IMG/VR virus record: IMGVR_UViG_3300032272_000003 | Location: 83,680 to 147,679 of that record | Reading direction: 5' to 3' (one strand) | Length of the DNA: 64,000 nt | From: a virus | Shown here: positions 6,934-62,056 of the stretch, one piece after another | Position numbering within the stretch: the stretch's first letter is position 1 | Layout: each line of letters opens with the position of its first letter | The notes under the pieces: model-generated | Databases searched by the model: none | Seen by the model: the letters and a program-made list of their open reading frames with translations, nothing else | Told to the model about the DNA's origin: nothing | Made by a program: the position numbers and the translations under genes

Positions 6934-7328
6934 AATTTGTTTGCCTTATAGGTTAGCTTGACCTCTGGATCAGGATGGGTCCATACGTTACAATGTAGTA
7001 CTGTTTTCTCAGAAACAGCATCTACAGTATCTATAGTATCTGGATAATAGTAACATTCCATGGACAGTTTATAAATCATATCACCACTATATTCATCAAT
7101 CTCATTTAACATAATACTAGCCAAGTACTCAATTGTAGTATCATCAATATATTCATGATGGAAATAGTATAGTTGACACCTAACACCATCCACGGTATGA
7201 ACAATCACACGTCTACCATTTGTGTTACCTCTTTCCACCCACGCTTTGTGGCAATCAATCATTTGAGCCGCAATAGGTATAAACTCTTTGTGAGTCAGTT
7301 CTGATAATCGCTTGTATTCAGATGTCAT
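6930..7328 (-). CDS. Family B paralog (ends VWTHPDPEVKLTYKANKL)
   Basis: Conserved C-terminus; GGGAG SD upstream of ATG at 7328. Confidence 0.8.
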   Translation of the reverse strand: MTSEYKRLSELTHKEFIPIAAQMIDCHKAWVERGNTNGRRVIVHTVDGVRCQLYYFHHEYIDDTTIEYLASIMLNEIDEYSGDMIYKLSMECYYYPDTIDTVDAVSEKTVLHCNVWTHPDPEVKLTYKANKL

Positions 7329-7333
7329 AAATA
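7326..7333 (+). promoter_or_regulatory. T4-type late promoter CATAAATA
   Basis: 5 nt upstream of the gp5 ATG (7339). Confidence 0.7.
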
Positions 7334-7338
7334 CTCCC

Positions 7339-8154
7339 ATGGATGAAATGACATTTAACGGTAACTATAGAGCCATTGTAACAGATAACAACGATCCTTT
7401 GCAAGCAGGAAGGGTTAGGGTTCGGGTTATGCCCATGTTTAAGGATGTTGACGCTGACGCTCTGCCCTGGGCGGTACTGGCTGATGCCTTTATGGGATCG
7501 CCTAATGCCGGGTCAGTTAATATACCTGAGATAGGTGCCAACCTATTTGTATTCTTTGAGGCCGGTGACCACCGGTACCCAGTATACTTTGCCACTGCTC
7601 CATCCATACAGAACGGTACACCCGATCTGCCTACCCTCACCAGGGAAGCAGACGATTCAGTTACCGATATCAATACCAATGCTAAGAAAGGTGTAGGGAC
7701 AGCCTCGGGTAGCTCCTGGGATGAGCCTGGTAGCGCCTATGCAGCCGTGTACCCAGAGAATAAGATTTGGAAGACCACCGATGGCCTATTGATAGAATTG
7801 GACGATACAGACGGTCAGCTTCGCTTCCACATATACCATCCAGCCGGTACCCGTATGGAGATCGATAAGGATGGCAACGAGGTTAACCACACACAGGGTA
7901 ATCGATTTACTGTTGTCGTCGGTGATGATAAAGTTTATATCACAGGGAATGGCGACATTACAGTAGATGGGGACATGGGTATTAAGGTGGGTGGTGATAC
8001 CAAGATAGATGTTACCGGTAATGCTGATATTATTGCTGCTGGGGATGCCTCAGTAGAGAGTGTTAACTCAACTGTTAAGGGGTCAGCGAGTGTTACTATA
8101 GATGGTGGCCCTGCTGTCACTATCACTGGTGGATTAATTAGTCTTAATCCTTAA
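7339..8154 (+). CDS. Baseplate central spike, T4 gp5/VgrG-like (OB fold plus beta-helix, no lysozyme domain)
   Basis: YRAIVTDNNDPLQAGRVRVRV...LPWA, P.IG...VFFE.GD..YP; C-terminal VxGD repeats. Confidence 0.9.
   Translation: MDEMTFNGNYRAIVTDNNDPLQAGRVRVRVMPMFKDVDADALPWAVLADAFMGSPNAGSVNIPEIGANLFVFFEAGDHRYPVYFATAPSIQNGTPDLPTLTREADDSVTDINTNAKKGVGTASGSSWDEPGSAYAAVYPENKIWKTTDGLLIELDDTDGQLRFHIYHPAGTRMEIDKDGNEVNHTQGNRFTVVVGDDKVYITGNGDITVDGDMGIKVGGDTKIDVTGNADIIAAGDASVESVNSTVKGSASVTIDGGPAVTITGGLISLNP
7375..7404 (-). promoter_or_regulatory. Candidate sigma70 promoter TTGCAA-18-(TG)TACAAT driving array 1
   Basis: Read from the - strand inside the gp5 5' end; has an extended -10. Confidence 0.5.
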
Positions 8155-13924: not shown

Positions 13925-14277
13925 AACATCACCTCAGCTATAAATACATCGTAATCGATATGCTCTTTATTCTCCCACATGATAATCTTATCATTGCCCT
14001 TGTCACTCATACTTACAAGGGCAATAGCAATTACCTTATCATCATCAATGTAATCAGCGATATTACGTTGTATATGGAATACCTGGCTCTGACTGGCTAC
14101 AATAAGAAGTCCTCCACCGAACCAACCACTATTGGCTAGGTTGAAGTATCCAGCTTTATATACCACTACCCGAAACTTCCAGTGCTGACCACCAGACTGC
14201 CGGTAAATTGCCTTCGCAGTATCGGAGATTTTCATGGCCAGGCCATGTACATTAACACCTTTTACGAAATAGTTCAT
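13921..14277 (-). CDS. Family C paralog (MWENKEHIDYDVFIAEVML)
   Basis: Conserved tail. Confidence 0.8.
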   Translation of the reverse strand: MNYFVKGVNVHGLAMKISDTAKAIYRQSGGQHWKFRVVVYKAGYFNLANSGWFGGGLLIVASQSQVFHIQRNIADYIDDDKVIAIALVSMSDKGNDKIIMWENKEHIDYDVFIAEVML

Positions 14278-14677: not shown

Positions 14678-14707
14678 ATATTAACCTAATAAATAAGGGT
14701 ATGTCAA
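14678..14707 (-). promoter_or_regulatory. Candidate sigma70 early promoter TTGACA-18-TAATAT driving array 2
   Basis: Perfect -35 inside the first codons of gp25. Confidence 0.6.
14688..14695 (+). promoter_or_regulatory. T4-type late promoter AATAAATA
   Basis: 5 nt upstream of the gp25 ATG. Confidence 0.7.
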
Positions 14708-34298: not shown

Positions 34299-35909
34299 TT
34301 AGAATACAAACGGCAGGGCGTCCAAGTCTTCACTGTCATCTTCGGTGGCCAGGGCCACGGCACCCATGTTGTTCATCTTCTCATCACAGTCATCATCGTA
34401 CCGAGCCATCTCACTTAAACAGAGCGTGGTCAGTACGGCACCCATGGCCAGATCGTCCTTCTTACCAGACTCGGCGGCGAACGATGCACCTTTCTTAACG
34501 AAGAACTTCAGTTCACTCAGTAATGCACGGCTATGAATAGTCATAGCATGAGACTCAACCAAATCTTTCAACCTAGAACAGCCCTTCAGCTTGGTAGGGT
34601 TGGTCATCAATATACCCTTTTTCTTTCTCTGGGATACGAACTCAGCATCATCAAGGATCGGGTGATCAGAATTCTGCAATAGATGGATGACACCCATACC
34701 GATTGGGTTGGATTCGATTGTGTAGTAAATCTGTCGGCACTTCATCTTGTCAAGCAGTATCAGGACTTTGATGATCTTCTTGGCGAAGTCGGTAAGGTTC
34801 ATGTTATTGTCACGGAACTCACCCACCTGCTCGAATGTCTTCTTGTCGAATATCTGGATAACCGAGTAGTCACCACCGGCACCGATACCCTCTGCCACGT
34901 CAATACCCAGCACAAGCTCTCTACGAGCCACCACACCATAGAAGTCGATGTCGTCAATGACCTTGACCGGTTCGATCCATGGAAGCCTCTCAAGGCATGA
35001 GGATTGTATCAAGGTACCTTTATCAGATACGAAGGCACACTCAAACTCCTGGGCATACTTGGTAGCGGTCATCTTCTGGAGCATCTTCTTTTTGAATGCC
35101 TCAGTTCTGCCTGGTACCTCACCACTGAACACCTGGATAGGAGCAAAACCATTATCACCTCGCTCGGCACCGAACCATAGCTCAGCGAACAATCCTTCGG
35201 ATGTATTAGGGGTGGATGTGATGATTACTTTCTTACCATCTAGTTCACCACCAGATAATGATGGCAGGATAGAGGTCCAGAACTCTTCAGCGATACGTGG
35301 TTCAACGAACGCAAACTCATCCAGGTACAGACCTCCTGTGAGCGTGAACCCACGGAAGGTATCGTCTGTGGTCGTTGCAGATATTACTGTTGAGTGGTTA
35401 TCGAACTCAACCTGATGCTTATTGTACTCGATTACCGCTGGCTTGATCCATGATGGTAGGAATTCATAAGCATATTTGAATCGTTTAATAAGATCGATGG
35501 CATTCTTACCCTTATGTGCTGCCATACCGATTACCTTGTCTTGGAAGAAACACGTCATCCATAGATAGAAGGCAACGATTAGAGTTGACTTGCCAGACTG
35601 CCTGGGCTGAAGAAGGATTGAATAGTCATTGGCCACCAGGCTCTTGATGATTTTCTTCTGGTATTTACGGAGTTTGAATAGGGCAGAGCCTTTGTCAGTT
35701 TGGATGTAAACGAAGTTCTCTATGAAGTAAATAGGATTCTTAAAGCACTTGACGTACTCAACCTCCTGCCAATCTTCAAGGACATCACTCTCATGGGGCT
35801 TCTTAATAGATGCTCTCTTGGTTATGTTGCCTTTTGAGTCAGTACCCCTCGCCTCAATAAGGCGCGGTTTGTTCTTAGTTCTCACACGTTTGGTTGGTTC
35901 ATCTGCCAT
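34299..35909 (-). CDS. terL: Terminase large subunit (T4 gp17-like)
   Basis: PRQSGKS Walker A, LYLDEFAFV Walker B, QEFEC, GIDVAEG, DDLAM; probable start MADEP at 35909 (frame open to TTG 36044). Confidence 0.97.
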   Translation of the reverse strand: MADEPTKRVRTKNKPRLIEARGTDSKGNITKRASIKKPHESDVLEDWQEVEYVKCFKNPIYFIENFVYIQTDKGSALFKLRKYQKKIIKSLVANDYSILLQPRQSGKSTLIVAFYLWMTCFFQDKVIGMAAHKGKNAIDLIKRFKYAYEFLPSWIKPAVIEYNKHQVEFDNHSTVISATTTDDTFRGFTLTGGLYLDEFAFVEPRIAEEFWTSILPSLSGGELDGKKVIITSTPNTSEGLFAELWFGAERGDNGFAPIQVFSGEVPGRTEAFKKKMLQKMTATKYAQEFECAFVSDKGTLIQSSCLERLPWIEPVKVIDDIDFYGVVARRELVLGIDVAEGIGAGGDYSVIQIFDKKTFEQVGEFRDNNMNLTDFAKKIIKVLILLDKMKCRQIYYTIESNPIGMGVIHLLQNSDHPILDDAEFVSQRKKKGILMTNPTKLKGCSRLKDLVESHAMTIHSRALLSELKFFVKKGASFAAESGKKDDLAMGAVLTTLCLSEMARYDDDCDEKMNNMGAVALATEDDSEDLDALPFVF

Positions 35910-35942
35910 GGATTTTTTACCTATCATTTCATAAATACTATT

Positions 35943-36020
35943 GAAGCGGGTGTATATAATGTCGCCTACGTTAGAAGTGTTTTTCATCCTCCTTTTTGAT
36001 ACTTCACACCCGCTCCTTTT
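35943..36020 (+). ncRNA. Candidate late small RNA (three-way junction, anti-SD loop), antisense to terminase leader
   Basis: CATAAATA at 35930-35937; P1 AGCGGGTGT/ACACCCGCT, P2 TAATGT/ACGTTA, P3 GAAGTGT/ATACTTC; G-U pairs favour + strand. Confidence 0.4.
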
Positions 36021-36049
36021 ACTACTTCCTTTTACATACCTCAAACTTG

Positions 36050-36057
36050 TATTTATA
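36050..36057 (-). promoter_or_regulatory. Late promoter TATAAATA for terminase
   Basis: Perfect T4 late consensus just downstream of a terminator. Confidence 0.75.
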
Positions 36058-36063
36058 CATAAT

Positions 36064-36089
36064 AAAAAGCCCCGTATTACCGAGGCTTA
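36064..36089 (-). terminator. Intrinsic terminator
   Basis: AAGCCTCG-gtaata-CGGGGCTT then T run on - strand. Confidence 0.75.
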
Positions 36090-36113
36090 AAGTTCTTCTT
36101 ATTGTCGTTTTTG

Positions 36114-36752
36114 TTATTCGGATTTCAGAACCTTAATATAGTCTGAAAAAAGAGCCTCATGGACAGTTTTACATACTTTATCAAGCTCTGGCATAACATC
36201 TATGATACTAATGGGGATGAAATGCTCACGAAGTAGTACCTTCTGTGAATAAATGAAGAGAAGGTTGTTTACGTTCTTGGCACCTGCTAACTCATCTAAA
36301 TTTTCTTCGATAAGATCAGCTATCGAACGACGTTTACGAACACCACTGACTGTGATACCTTCCTTATCATCGCCTGACTCGTTCACTGCTTTCTTACGTT
36401 TGGTTGGGGATTTCTTAGCACCCTTACCCTTTGCAGTTGGTCTGGTGGCTGTTACATCGATTGGTTGGATAATCTCAATCTCAAGATCGTTAACAGGAGT
36501 GAACAGACGTTCATTCTCTACTATAATCTCCAGACGAGAGTTATATTCACCAGGGCCGATCATCTCTTTGAGTACAGGAAGGTTGAAAACTGCTTCTGCA
36601 TTGACGACAAGTGTTTCGAATGTCAACTGGACACCCTCTTTCTCGATTACATACCGAGCCTTGATGTTTTTGGTTTCAATACCCTTAACATCAACACCAA
36701 ATTCAATTGTGTTGACTTCTCTGTTGTCTAAAATTAGTCTTTCCGCTGCCAT
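36114..36752 (-). CDS. Hypothetical late protein (beta-sandwich N-terminus, basic linker)
   Basis: ORF in late - strand operon. Confidence 0.75.
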   Translation of the reverse strand: MAAERLILDNREVNTIEFGVDVKGIETKNIKARYVIEKEGVQLTFETLVVNAEAVFNLPVLKEMIGPGEYNSRLEIIVENERLFTPVNDLEIEIIQPIDVTATRPTAKGKGAKKSPTKRKKAVNESGDDKEGITVSGVRKRRSIADLIEENLDELAGAKNVNNLLFIYSQKVLLREHFIPISIIDVMPELDKVCKTVHEALFSDYIKVLKSE

Positions 36753-37108
36753 ACTCTCACCGTTATTGATTTCAATATCTGCCTGATATGATGATACTTG
36801 ACAGATATGCCGCTTGTTACTGTATTTATACCCTTCGTAACTTTAATGATTAGGCGTCCAATCTTGTCCTTAGCATCGTAGCTTCTCTTCCAGGTTCTAC
36901 CCCTATAAGTGACGATGATGTCGAATGTCTTCTGATCCTTTGCAGGGGCAGGACCAGCACCACCACCGGTACCAAATGATATCTTGATTGGGCCTAGAGA
37001 GAAGTAACCAATAATCATACCAGAACTAACAAACGAGTTGGCGTATCCCTTACCTATTACTCTACCTCGGGTGACTATACCCTTTGCTATTCGTGGTAGT
37101 GCAGCCAT
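36734..37108 (-). CDS. Hypothetical basic late protein
   Basis: Coupled ORF. Confidence 0.7.
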   Translation of the reverse strand: MAALPRIAKGIVTRGRVIGKGYANSFVSSGMIIGYFSLGPIKISFGTGGGAGPAPAKDQKTFDIIVTYRGRTWKRSYDAKDKIGRLIIKVTKGINTVTSGISVKYHHIRQILKSITVRVWQRKD

Positions 37109-37638
37109 TACTGAGGCACACGCTCGAAGATGTCAATGATTGACCTAACACCAGAATCATCATATAGATCGAATATCTTGAATGGAGTGGTACCATCATC
37201 TTCATATATGGTCAGGGTCTTATTAATGGGGTTGACAAAGGTACGGTTACGGTCGTACTTTAGAATCTCGGTAACGATAGCCAGGGTTTCGCTGTTTAAT
37301 GCCTGTTCAAACCCAGTGGTACCGGCAGTCAAATGGTCCAGTTGATCTTCTTCCCACGTCTCAAAGGCAATATCCTCGACATACGATTCATTGAAGGCAA
37401 CATGGTATTGTTGGTTCTGTGGAATACCGGCTCCAGCAGTAACAATGAACCCATAGTTAGTTCTGTTGTCATAAGTAGTGAATATATACTTGTAAATACC
37501 ATCACCAACCTCTATCATATCATCAGTGACAATGACGGAATCTGTGGTGGCACTGATTTCCCAAATCTTGATGGTAGGGGATAATCCGGGTGTGGGTACT
37601 CCTGTCCTCGTTATATATGCTGTTATGATTTTGGGCAT
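37108..37638 (-). CDS. Putative virion structural protein
   Basis: GLSPTI...M.EVG.G.YKY.F, LTIY.DDG.TP...F.L.D; AAGGAG SD and late promoter. Confidence 0.7.
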   Translation of the reverse strand: MPKIITAYITRTGVPTPGLSPTIKIWEISATTDSVIVTDDMIEVGDGIYKYIFTTYDNRTNYGFIVTAGAGIPQNQQYHVAFNESYVEDIAFETWEEDQLDHLTAGTTGFEQALNSETLAIVTEILKYDRNRTFVNPINKTLTIYEDDGTTPFKIFDLYDDSGVRSIIDIFERVPQ

Positions 37639-41182: not shown

Positions 41183-41190
41183 TATAAATA
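41183..41190 (+). promoter_or_regulatory. Late promoter TATAAATA
   Basis: Perfect consensus 5 nt before ATG 41196. Confidence 0.8.
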
Positions 41191-41195
41191 GATGT

Positions 41196-41224
41196 ATGGT
41201 ACACTACTATAATGCTCAAGTCAA
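41196..41224 (-). promoter_or_regulatory. Candidate sigma70 promoter TTGACT-17-TACCAT
   Basis: The -10 overlaps the gp15 start codon. Confidence 0.5.
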
Positions 41225-59802: not shown

Positions 59803-59831
59803 ATGCTATCATTTAAGATATCCGAAGTCAA
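59803..59831 (-). promoter_or_regulatory. Sigma70 promoter TTGACT-17-(TG)TAGCAT
   Basis: The -35 overlaps late promoter AATAAATA 59830-59837 on the + strand. Confidence 0.6.
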
Positions 59832-59842
59832 TAAATAGATGT

Positions 59843-60559
59843 ATGGCAACTTTCAAACAGAATCGTATTGGTCAATATGGCCCAAAGGACAGGGACTTAC
59901 AGAAGCGTATGTCCTTCGAGCGGCTATCGCTGACCGCCAAGAGTGCTTACTATTACCTCTATAAGGGTGTGAAGACCAACCCATCTCCAGATGTCACCGA
60001 CATTCAAGACCCTATCTTCCTTGAGAATCGTGACAGAGAATACGATTTAGAAGCTATCGAAGTTAACATCTGGTATGAAACACTCCCAGTATCAGCCTTC
60101 GACCTTAGCCGGATCGGGATCATCAATCCTGTCGGCAACACCCAAGAATTCAGAATGCATACCCTGACCATGGAGAGTGACGGACTGGGCCGTTATCCAC
60201 TCGCCGGGGATATCATCGAAGTACCATTCTTAGAACAAGATGATCGTAGGGCATTCTTTGAAGTGACCGACGTTGACCGTAAACAGGAGTTCGAGAACTT
60301 CATTATAATCCTCACCACGGTACCTGTGGAACATTCTCAGGAGACTTCTGATCTTCATGGTGAAGATGGATGGGATAGCAACGAAAGCGTTCTGGAAGAC
60401 CTTATGGACGATATTGATCAATACCAGAAGGATGAGTTTGAAGAGACCGGCCTGGACGATACCGGACTTGACGGCGTGGAACAAACACGTAATACTTATG
60501 ATCCAAGACCAGACATCGCTGAGGACTTCCTCGACGATCCTAATAAGAAGATATTCTAA
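59843..60559 (+). CDS. Neck protein T4 gp14-like
   Basis: LSRIG...F..H...GR.P..GDIIEVP....FFEVTDV; start MATFKQ lies 5 nt after AATAAATA. Confidence 0.8.
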   Translation: MATFKQNRIGQYGPKDRDLQKRMSFERLSLTAKSAYYYLYKGVKTNPSPDVTDIQDPIFLENRDREYDLEAIEVNIWYETLPVSAFDLSRIGIINPVGNTQEFRMHTLTMESDGLGRYPLAGDIIEVPFLEQDDRRAFFEVTDVDRKQEFENFIIILTTVPVEHSQETSDLHGEDGWDSNESVLEDLMDDIDQYQKDEFEETGLDDTGLDGVEQTRNTYDPRPDIAEDFLDDPNKKIF

Positions 60560-61300: not shown

Positions 61301-61324
61301 ATTCGCTCCTGTATAAATACTAGC

Positions 61325-62056
61325 ATGACTGAAACAGACTTTTTTGATGAACTCCAGGCCAGACTAGGTGGAAACCTGATCGACGTAGAACTCACTTACC
61401 CTGATTTCAGGGTAGCGTTCAATCTTGCTACTCTCACCTACCGTACAAAGGGCAATGATAATCTGAAGAATACCTTCTATGCCATTTCGGTGGATAGTTC
61501 ATCTCAAACCTATACATTACCAACCGAGATCGACGAGATCATTGAAGTCGTCGATGCTGCTGAAGGTAACCTATTATCATCAGGTACCTCTGCTGATCCG
61601 TTCGCCCTGGCATTCATCCAGAGCACATTCAGTGGGCTAGGTATTGGTGGTGTATCACTCGTCAACCTAGAACTGTATCATCAACAGCTTGAAACTGTTG
61701 GTAACTACACTGTTAGTGACCAACCATTCATATTTGACCGTGTTAATCATCAGGTCACGTTCCTGAAACACATCGGCTCTGCTCAAAACTGGTTACTCGA
61801 AGTCTACAGCCGCATGACCGACGAAGAGTACCGTGATGTTCTGTGGATCAAAGAGTTTGCCCTGGCCGAAGCCAAGATCATGCTCGGACGTGCTTATCAG
61901 AAGTATGCTACTCTCACCACACCATCTGGTGAAACCAACCTCAATGGTGAACAGCTTATTGCTGACGGTAAAGAAGATAAAGATCGTCTCCTAGAAGACA
62001 TCAAGAACTTCACCGACACCGAAGACGCTATTGGTGGAATCATCTTCCTGGGCTAA
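61325..62056 (+). CDS. Neck protein T4 gp13-like
   Basis: RLG...IDVELT, WIKEFALAEAK.MLG....KY....P.G...LNG..L...G; TATAAATA at 61312-61319. Confidence 0.9.
   Translation: MTETDFFDELQARLGGNLIDVELTYPDFRVAFNLATLTYRTKGNDNLKNTFYAISVDSSSQTYTLPTEIDEIIEVVDAAEGNLLSSGTSADPFALAFIQSTFSGLGIGGVSLVNLELYHQQLETVGNYTVSDQPFIFDRVNHQVTFLKHIGSAQNWLLEVYSRMTDEEYRDVLWIKEFALAEAKIMLGRAYQKYATLTTPSGETNLNGEQLIADGKEDKDRLLEDIKNFTDTEDAIGGIIFLG

What the first reader, a model, noticed from the sequence alone, without database searches (positions are those of the whole stretch)
35930..36057. Candidate late three-way-junction sRNA with an anti-Shine-Dalgarno loop, antisense to the terminase leader
Seen: convergent late boxes (+ CATAAATA 35930-35937, - TATAAATA 36057-36050) flank about 110 nt. 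The predicted + TSS (35943) falls at the 5' edge of stem P1 (AGCGGGTGT 35945-35953 / ACACCCGCT 36006-36014), which encloses P2 (TAATGT/ACGTTA) and P3 (GAAGTGT/ATACTTC); CCTTTT follows. The G-U pairs work only on the + strand. The P3 loop UUUUCAUCCUCCUUUUU is complementary to AGGAGG-AUG, and further UCCUUUU motifs follow. Inference: either a trans-acting RBS-blocking sRNA (notable alongside leaderless structural mRNAs), a cis-antisense limiter of terminase, a packaging-associated RNA, or on the - strand a GGA-rich CsrA/RsmA-binding leader.
Basis: partly seen in the sequence, partly recalled or inferred. Interest (0 to 1): 0.7.

Follow-up and report, generated by a model that had tools for sequence, protein, structure and literature searches.

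The report
Terminase leader with facing late promoters
This stretch is the start of the DNA-packaging (terminase) messenger of an uncultured T4-like phage; it is unusually crowded with ribosome-binding-like motifs and faces a second late-promoter box that could make a small antisense RNA, but nothing yet shows that this RNA exists.

Summary
ATAAATA is a real late-promoter core in this genome. The box at 36056 (minus strand) is a typical late promoter and sits right after a terminator, so the minus-strand RNA is certainly made: it is the terL messenger.

The plus-strand small RNA stays a candidate.
- **For it:** its box puts the start 2 nt before P1, it folds best of all 44 box-proximal RNAs, and P2/P3 form only on that strand.
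- **Against it:** P1 gives most of the stability and pairs on both strands. About 130 loci per strand fold as well. The number of orphan intergenic boxes equals chance. There is no plus-strand terminator, Rfam match, second copy or close relative.

The "anti-SD loop" is the complement of the densest cluster of Shine-Dalgarno-like motifs in the 147.7-kb genome, which lies on the terL sense strand. My best reading (0.45) is a terL leader that acts in cis, as SD decoys or a STAB-SD-like stabiliser. A sar/RNA-OUT-like antisense RNA is a possible second layer (0.3).

A terL N-terminal extension is not excluded. Earlier scan notes describe the same architecture on other DNA, heading homing endonucleases, but I found no sequence link.

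The parts
36067..36088 (-). Intrinsic terminator of the upstream minus-strand gene cluster (genes 37638..36114). It has 8 pairs followed by a U-run, and is good only on the minus strand.
   Evidence: On the plus strand the stem has a C-A mismatch and no U-run follows.
36050..36057 (-). Late promoter box TATAAATA of terL. The predicted start is at 36044 (box, then N5).
   Evidence: Its flank score of 8.9 is above all 32 boxes placed before genes. The geometry comes from seven ATAAATA-N5-ATG genes.
35978..36044 (-). Purine-rich start of the terL messenger, holding four SD-like motifs: GAGGU at 36042-36038 followed by AUG-UAA; AAAAGGAAG at 36033-36025; AAAAGGAG at 36020-36013 followed by GUG-UGA, or by a 7-codon mini-ORF from GUG 36007; and AAAAAGGAGG at 35997-35988 abutting AUG 35987.
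   Evidence: This is the densest cluster of SD-like 5-mers in the genome on either strand: 6 in 57 nt, next best 4. No gene-interior window matches it in SD-like count, and none reaches 77% purine.
35945..36014 (.). Long-range stem P1 with its enclosed interior. P1 is 9 bp on the plus strand and 12 bp (36016-36005 / 35954-35943) on the minus strand. The interior forms P2 and P3 on the plus strand only.
35982..35997 (+). 16-nt loop of P3. It is the complement of the AAAAAGGAGG-AUG motif on the terL strand.
35930..35937 (+). Orphan late-promoter-like box CATAAATA facing the terL promoter. The predicted start is at 35943, 2 nt before P1.
   Evidence: Its flank score of -0.2 is mid-range. The chance of such a box in this leader is 1.5%, but about 3 chance boxes in the wrong orientation are expected genome-wide and 4 are seen.
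34299..35909 (-). terL (T4-type large terminase). ATG 35909 is the most accessible start and already lies upstream of where homology to relatives begins (about 34 codons further in). Other in-frame candidates are ATG 35927, ATG 35987 (the gene caller's choice) and TTG 36044.

Best explanation
The stretch is the 5' end of the late terL messenger, read on the minus strand. Transcription starts about 6 nt after the TATAAATA box at 36057-36050, directly behind the terminator of the upstream genes.

The first ~60 nt are a purine-rich run of four Shine-Dalgarno-like motifs. None has a normally spaced start codon for a long ORF: one is followed by AUG-UAA, one by GUG-UGA or a 7-codon mini-ORF, and the strongest abuts AUG 35987 with zero spacing. 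A 12-bp stem (P1) ties the second motif to sequence 60 nt downstream and holds the strongest motif in a large loop.

I infer that these motifs hold ribosomes or 30S subunits on the leader without productive initiation. That would protect or tune a messenger whose real start is weak, in the manner of a STAB-SD 5' stabiliser or SD decoy. This fits a clade in which terL starts are generally weak.

The plus-strand 'anti-SD loop' is then the mirror image of the strongest motif. The facing box at 35930-35937 may add a second layer: a short antisense RNA and promoter interference.

Shown: promoter, terminator, motif cluster and predicted folds. Inferred: ribosome binding, the effect on stability or translation, and the true start codon.
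For: - **The transcript must exist.** terL needs a promoter. The 36056 box follows a minus-strand terminator and has a flank score above all 32 boxes placed before genes.
- **ATAAATA is a true late core.** 29 copies lie wholly inside intergenic DNA against 6.2 expected. There are 12 in genes against 24.8±4.3 expected. It precedes structural genes such as the gp25-like, gp15-like and adaptor genes.
- **The SD-like cluster is unique in the genome** and lies on the sense strand. Its AAAAGGAG motif is the phage's own SD form.
- **Zero spacing is not used elsewhere.** GGAGG-to-start spacing peaks at 4-6 nt in this genome, and 35987 is the only zero-spacing case.
- **ATG 35909 is the most accessible start.** Opening cost is 5.5 kcal/mol against 12-15 for the other candidates. 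It already lies upstream of where homology to relatives begins.
- **The leader is exceptionally long.** It is about 135 nt, against 5-70 nt for every other late gene.
- **Relatives have weak terL starts.** L219 has a leaderless GTG, L220 a TTG in a TTGA overlap and L084 a GTG.
- **STAB-SD is an established mechanism** (PMC12970973, read, citing Agaisse and Lereclus 1996).
Against: - There is no experimental or comparative support of any kind, because no relative shares the leader.
- On the minus strand only P1 is stable. The interior is ill defined (diversity 14) and its fold is no better than shuffles.
- The host is unknown, so its RNases are unknown.
- The 26 codons from ATG 35987 have gene-like codon usage (score 9.6; about 3:1 for coding). 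Part of the 'leader' may therefore be coding.
- The plus-strand features (box placement, well-defined fold) are left as coincidence or as a second layer.
Confidence: 0.45

Rival explanations
1. Cis-encoded late antisense RNA, like P22 sar or IS10 RNA-OUT. The box at 35930-35937 drives a plus-strand RNA from 35943. This RNA folds into P1-P2-P3 and shows the complement of the terL AAGGAGG-AUG in a 16-nt loop. Pairing with the first ~100 nt of the terL messenger, together with collision between the two facing promoters, holds terminase synthesis down.
For: - ATAAATA seems sufficient as a promoter and is selected against elsewhere.
- The predicted start lies 2 nt before P1.
- Of all 44 box-proximal 78-nt RNAs this one is the most structured (z -5.0; mRNA promoters sit around 0 to +2).
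- P2/P3 and the well-defined ensemble are plus-specific.
- Earlier scan notes report facing late boxes around antisense-folding hairpins in other uncultured T4-like phages. These are leads only.
- Antisense RNAs are known in T4-type phages: CfrI of S-PM2 (PMC2984593).
Against: - No transcript data are available.
- The orphan intergenic box count (4) equals chance (about 3), and the flank score is only mid-range.
- There is no canonical plus-strand terminator.
- P1, the main source of stability, is not strand-specific.
- The element is single-copy and has no homologue.
- If terL starts at 35909, the overlap misses its start site.
Confidence: 0.3
2. N-terminal coding extension of TerL. The messenger is leaderless and is translated from UUG 36044 (581 aa), or translation starts at AUG 35987 (562 aa, the gene caller's choice). 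That start might be reached by termination-reinitiation from the 7-codon mini-ORF whose UGA overlaps it. The folds would then be incidental.
For: - TATAAATA-N5-TTG has the exact geometry of seven leaderless ATG genes, and the frame stays open into terL. I estimate the joint chance at about 0.4%.
- The relative L219 has ATAAATA-N5-GTG as its only possible terL start.
- Codons 35987-35910 score like genes.
Against: - Codons 36044-35988 score as non-coding (-6.2; 96% of stop-free shuffles score higher).
- No coding window in the genome approaches their SD-like density or purine content.
- No homologue carries such an extension, and an exhaustive search with the 54 residues from ATG 35987 found only a spurious repeat protein.
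- AlphaFold2 gives pLDDT below 50 for residues 1-68, which is uninformative because the alignment has no coverage there.
- From established knowledge, leaderless initiation at UUG is poor in E. coli.
- AUG 35987 has zero SD spacing.
Confidence: 0.2
3. Trans-acting anti-SD RNA. The plus-strand RNA carries three or four 16S-3'-end-like motifs: CCUCCUUU in the loop, and CUCCUUUU, UUCCUUUU and ACCUC in the tail. It masks strong SDs of other messengers late in infection and so favours leaderless late messengers.
For: - The motif cluster is unique in the genome.
- Contiguous matches of 9-11 nt to the loop lie at the SDs of a few other phage genes.
- Seven to nine late genes are leaderless.
- Scan notes report anti-RBS loops in other T4-like phages. 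These are leads only.
Against: - Most late structural genes use strong SDs themselves and would also be hit.
- The cluster is explained more simply on the sense strand.
- All the objections to the existence of the plus-strand RNA apply here too.
Confidence: 0.05
4. Chance. An ordinary long leader happens to contain a 9-bp inverted repeat and a stray ATAAATA.
For: - About 34 such 9-bp repeats within 80 nt are expected in this genome by simple arithmetic (my estimate).
- The fold ranks only in the top 1.7% of windows.
- The orphan box count equals chance.
Against: - The SD-like cluster is the genome-wide extreme.
- The leader is the longest among late genes.
- The box, P1 and the cluster coincide within 110 nt.
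Confidence: 0.15

Closest known systems
STAB-SD 5' stabiliser of Bacillus thuringiensis cry3Aa (Agaisse and Lereclus 1996; described in PMC12970973)
   Same: An SD sequence fully complementary to the 16S 3' end sits near the 5' end of a ~130-nt leader. It is not used for initiation and is thought to hold a 30S subunit that shields the messenger.
   Different: Here there are four motifs instead of one, three of them followed by a start codon or a start-stop. The element is in a T4-like phage late messenger, the host is unknown and no stability data exist.
Phage P22 sar RNA and IS10 RNA-OUT/RNA-IN (from established knowledge; not re-read here)
   Same: A short structured RNA is made from a promoter inside the target's 5' region, facing the target promoter, and its loop is complementary to the target's ribosome-binding region.
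   Different: No transcript has been shown and there is no clear terminator. The target's real start codon may lie outside the overlap. Both promoters are of the same (late) class.
T4 translation-initiation-region structures: gene e, I-TevI (RBS-masking hairpin with a nested late promoter) and genes 38 and 25 (hairpin that shortens SD-AUG spacing) (PMC3014915)
   Same: T4-type late messenger with RNA structure next to the start region.
   Different: The late promoter lies upstream of both arms of P1, so the stem is not bypassed in late transcripts. With P1 formed, the nearest SD is still at least 17 nt from AUG 35927 and 35909.
CfrI antisense RNA of cyanophage S-PM2 (PMC2984593)
   Same: An antisense RNA in a T4-type phage.
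   Different: CfrI is ~225 nt, spans psbA and a homing endonuclease gene, and has been observed experimentally.
Antisense cassettes heading homing-endonuclease genes in uncultured T4-like phages
   Same: Two facing late-promoter boxes around small hairpins at the 5' end of a gene, with a fold that is better on the strand opposite the gene.
   Different: Those cassettes are 75-85 nt, portable, multi-copy and head nucleases. This element has 112 nt between the boxes, is single-copy and heads terL. I found no sequence or model link.

Membership tests
T4-type late promoter (gp55-dependent, TATAAATA at -10) | The TATAAATA-like core is enriched just upstream of late (structural) genes. | tested here: met
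   There are 44 ATAAATA copies, 32-34 of them within 75 nt upstream of same-strand genes, including baseplate, sheath-stabiliser and adaptor genes. The core is depleted two-fold in genes.
T4-type late promoter (gp55-dependent, TATAAATA at -10) | The phage encodes the late sigma gp55 and gp33. | not tested
   Only UvsX, the clamp loader and structural homologues were checked. The record is only 43% complete.
Cis-encoded antisense RNA control (sar / RNA-OUT type) | There is a promoter on the opposite strand inside the target's 5' region. | tested here: met
   CATAAATA at 35930-35937 faces the terL promoter. This is a sequence motif only, and its flank score is mid-range.
Cis-encoded antisense RNA control (sar / RNA-OUT type) | The RNA has a stable fold that exposes the complement of the target's RBS in a loop. 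| tested here: met
   Predicted fold.
Cis-encoded antisense RNA control (sar / RNA-OUT type) | The RNA has a defined 3' end (terminator). | tested here: not met
   No plus-strand terminator-like site was found. Only CCUUUU follows P1, and the downstream hairpin has a mismatch and no U-run.
Cis-encoded antisense RNA control (sar / RNA-OUT type) | The antisense transcript has been detected. | not testable with these tools
STAB-SD-type 5' stabiliser | An SD-like sequence matching the 16S 3' end lies in the 5' UTR and has no usable start codon. | tested here: met
   AAAGGAGG at 35995-35988 has zero spacing to AUG, and zero spacing is unused elsewhere in the genome. The cluster is unique in the genome.
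STAB-SD-type 5' stabiliser | The element stabilises the messenger through 30S binding, in a host with 5'-end-dependent decay. | not testable with these tools
   The host is unknown and there are no RNA data.
Rfam families, including phi29 pRNA and c4 antisense RNA | A match to the family's covariance model. | tested here: not met
   There are no matches at gathering scores in the window. The only matches at E up to 10 in 35800-36200 are chance-level hits centred on the terminator.
T4 gene e / I-TevI type RBS mask with a nested late promoter | The late promoter lies inside the 5' arm, so late transcripts lack the mask. | tested here: not met
   The box at 36057-36050 lies upstream of both P1 arms (36016-36005 and 35954-35943).
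T4 gene 38 / 25 type split SD | A hairpin brings the SD to within 5-11 nt of the AUG. | tested here: not met
   With P1 formed, the effective spacing to AUG 35927 or 35909 is at least 17 nt (sequence).
Homing-endonuclease antisense cassette (scan notes) | A portable, multi-copy ~80-nt cassette that heads nuclease genes. | tested here: not met
   The element is single-copy in the genome and absent from 86 related loci. It heads terL, and there is no shared sequence in the scan index.
CsrA/RsmA-binding leader | GGA motifs in loops that overlap the SD, in a host that has CsrA. | not testable with these tools
   Several GGA motifs are present, but the host is unknown.

The most novel reading that the evidence does not exclude
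A late-expressed phage RNA mimics the 3' end of 16S rRNA. It carries three or four anti-SD motifs, one in a 16-nt loop and the rest in a single-stranded tail. It masks strong Shine-Dalgarno sites in trans, including terL's own leader, and so shifts translation late in infection towards leaderless messengers.
Probability: 0.05. Interest if true: 0.85.

Novelty: new variant of a known kind. Interest (0 to 1): 0.35.

Why it matters
Large terminase is needed in small, controlled amounts. This phage clade seems to keep its synthesis low in several ways: GTG or TTG starts, a leaderless start, and here a uniquely long leader packed with ribosome-binding decoys and faced by a second late promoter.

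If the leader or its antisense partner is functional, it would be an example of post-transcriptional control of DNA packaging in T4-type phages, where known RNA controls concern lysis, nucleases and replication genes. The locus also gives a clean test case for whether a bare ATAAATA box is enough to fire late transcription.

Tried and rejected
- **Rfam.** Nothing at gathering scores in the whole window. A permissive scan of 35800-36200 gave only chance-level hits on the terminator.
- **Phage DNA database.** No match.
- **Close relatives.**
  - A search for N-terminal fragments found none.
  - An exhaustive search with the 54 residues from ATG 35987 gave only a spurious immunoglobulin-repeat protein.
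- **Eight relatives' terL upstream regions.** No comparable leader.
- **Single-sequence covariance model.** No other copy in the genome or in 86 loci.
- **Pattern scans of viral contigs.** A scan for box-SD/ATG-box and a scan for facing boxes gave only unrelated, AT-rich chance hits.
- **Facing boxes in L017.** These turned out to be the leader of a gene-32 homologue, not a relative of this element.
- **AlphaFold2 of the 581-aa ORF.** Residues 1-68 have pLDDT below 50. This is uninformative, because the alignment has no coverage there.
- **The 43-aa hydrophobic plus-strand ORF (35959-36090).** Its codon score is unremarkable (25th percentile of real genes), it has no SD and it runs across the minus-strand promoter and terminator. 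I judged it unlikely and did not search for homologues.
- **Synteny of the upstream 212-aa gene.** No similarity to the relatives' ClpP-like gene.

Full report
**Context**

The window is bases 83680-147679 of a 147.7-kb viral record estimated 43% complete. It is a T4-like phage. It has:
- a T4-type large terminase (Pfam Terminase_6N/6C);
- gp6-like and gp25-like baseplate wedge proteins;
- a gp15-like sheath stabiliser and a head-tail adaptor;
- UvsX, a clamp loader, a helicase and a ligase.

terL lies on the minus strand, at 34299 to about 35909-36044.

No close relative exists in any collection.
- The phage DNA database gave no match.
- The best viral-contig TerL is 37% identical.
- The best TerL among 5.8 billion proteins is 60% identical, and the next are 56% (over a partial alignment) and 53%.

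**The observation**

The plus-strand minimum-energy fold is the three-way junction described: -23.4 kcal/mol, z -5.0.

Two qualifications apply.
- **The reverse complement folds almost as well.** It gives -22.9 kcal/mol, z -3.6. P1 grows to 12 bp on that strand using its own G-U pairs. P1 supplies most of the energy on both strands. The interior alone gives -7.2 on plus (z -2.3) and -3.8 on minus (z -0.3).
- **The stability is not exceptional for this genome.** Among all 80-nt windows the plus fold ranks 320 of 18,450, and about 130 loci per strand fold as well.

The plus fold is, however, very well defined. Ensemble diversity is 2.9 on plus against 14 on minus, and only 3.6% of similarly stable windows are as well defined.

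**The late boxes**

ATAAATA occurs 44 times in the genome.
- 29 copies lie wholly inside the ~10% of the genome that is non-coding, against 6.2±2.4 expected.
- 12 copies lie in genes, against 24.8±4.3 expected from synonymous-codon shuffles; no shuffle gave as few.
- About 33 sit within 75 nt upstream of a same-strand gene.
- Seven have the form ATAAATA-N5-ATG, where 0.7 would be expected. This fixes the transcription start 6 nt after the box and implies leaderless late messengers.

The terL box at 36056 has a flank score above all 32 boxes placed before genes. It follows a good minus-strand terminator at 36088-36067. The minus-strand RNA across the finding therefore certainly exists: it is the 5' end of the terL messenger.

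The plus-strand box at 35931 has a mid-range flank score. The chance of such a box in this particular leader is 1.5%. Across all intergenic DNA, though, about three chance boxes in the wrong orientation are expected and four are seen.

**Where terL starts**

Homologues begin at about residue 73-80 of the 581-aa TTG-to-stop frame. Every candidate start here therefore gives an N-terminal extension.

| Candidate start | Evidence |
|---|---|
| ATG 35909 | Most accessible (opening cost 5.5 kcal/mol), but has only a weak AGGU SD. |
| ATG 35987 (gene caller's choice) | Abuts AGGAGG with zero spacing, a geometry no other gene in the genome uses. The 26 codons after it have gene-like codon usage, about 3:1 for coding. 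|
| TTG 36044 | Sits exactly at box-N5 and is in frame with no stop. I put the chance of this at about 0.4%. |

Three relatives also have weak, non-AUG terL starts.
- L219 has ATAAATA-N5-GTG as its only possible start.
- L220 uses a TTG in a TTGA overlap.
- L084 uses a GTG.

Against translation from 36044, its first 19 codons score as non-coding. No coding window in the genome comes near their SD-like density or purine content. AlphaFold2 leaves residues 1-68 unresolved, which says nothing either way. The start codon stays open.

**The strongest new fact**

The 57 nt from 36034 to 35978 on the minus strand hold six SD-like 5-mers. This is the highest count in the whole genome on either strand; the next best is four.

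The motifs have the phage's own SD form, AAAAGGAG. Three of the four are followed at once by a start codon with an immediate or early stop, or with zero spacing.

On the sense strand such motifs have a known meaning. An SD in a 5' UTR that is not used for initiation can hold a 30S subunit and stabilise the messenger; this is STAB-SD of cry3Aa, which sits about 125 nt upstream of the start (PMC12970973). The terL leader here would be about 135 nt, the longest of any late gene in this genome.

**Plus-strand case**

Evidence for a plus-strand RNA:
- Of the 44 RNAs that would start 6 nt after a box, the one from 35931 is the most structured (z -5.0). True mRNA promoters give z of about 0 to +2.
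- The start falls 2 nt before P1.
- P2/P3 are plus-specific (p about 0.03).

Evidence against:
- There is no plus-strand terminator.
- There is no second copy.
- There is no Rfam match.
- No transcript data could be obtained.

Earlier notes of this scan describe facing late boxes around antisense-folding hairpins at the head of homing-endonuclease genes in other uncultured T4-like phages, and anti-RBS loops in others. The architecture is alike, but I found no sequence or model link. I treat these notes as leads only.

**Verdict**

- **Certain:** this is a terL late-messenger 5' region with a unique SD-like cluster and a long-range stem.
- **Most likely (0.45):** the cluster and stem act in cis on terL messenger stability or translation.
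- **Plausible second layer or alternative (0.3):** a sar/RNA-OUT-like antisense RNA from the facing box.
- **Not excluded (0.2):** part or all of the stretch is a TerL N-terminal extension.
- **Unlikely (0.05):** a trans-acting anti-SD RNA, because most late genes here depend on strong SDs.
- **No support:** a packaging RNA.

These readings overlap, so the figures need not add to 1.

Noticed in passing
window 7327-7341, 14689-14703, 41184-41198, 59831-59845, 61313-61327 (and two more upstream of the window): Seven late genes have ATAAATA-N5-ATG, which implies leaderless late messengers in a T4-like phage. They include the gp25-like, gp15-like and head-tail adaptor genes. The ORFs at 7312 and 59747 probably start at ATG 7339 and ATG 59843. 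About 0.7 such cases would be expected by chance.
   Followed up: partly
whole genome G000: The late core ATAAATA is depleted two-fold inside genes on both strands (12 seen, 24.8±4.3 expected). This suggests selection against stray late promoters.
   Followed up: yes
L219:101-116; L220:1196-1206; L084:1495-1503; L087:1467-1503: Relatives' terL starts are weak or unusual. One is a leaderless GTG exactly N5 after a late box, one is a TTG in a TTGA overlap and one is a GTG. Another relative has a late box with a 19-nt leader.
   Followed up: partly
L089:1000-1560 (genome 8500-9060, outside the window): A ~500-nt AT-rich region without ORFs holds TTTTGGTGCA three times and GGCAC/GCCA repeats. It is the most strongly folding part of the genome scan, has no tRNA or Rfam match and carries an orphan late box. 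It may be an origin or a regulatory region.
   Followed up: partly
window 13940-14030 (+): An orphan late box lies antisense inside the small-paralogue array and is followed by a structured RNA (z -3.7). This is the second most structured of the 44 box-proximal RNAs.
   Followed up: no
L017:6736-6818: In a 328-kb relative the leader of the gene-32 homologue has a perfect TTGACA-N17-TATAAT overlapping a late box, plus a facing late box 64 nt downstream. This recalls the sense and antisense transcription reported for T4 gene 32.
   Followed up: no
P0011 residues 267-404 (L219): This relative's TerL carries an intein-like insert of about 138 residues after the conserved QEF-C motif.
   Followed up: no
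window 36114-37638 (-): The three genes upstream of terL (212, 124 and 176 aa) have no Pfam or PHROG match and no similarity to the ClpP-like gene that precedes terL in relatives. The small terminase is not identified.
   Followed up: partly
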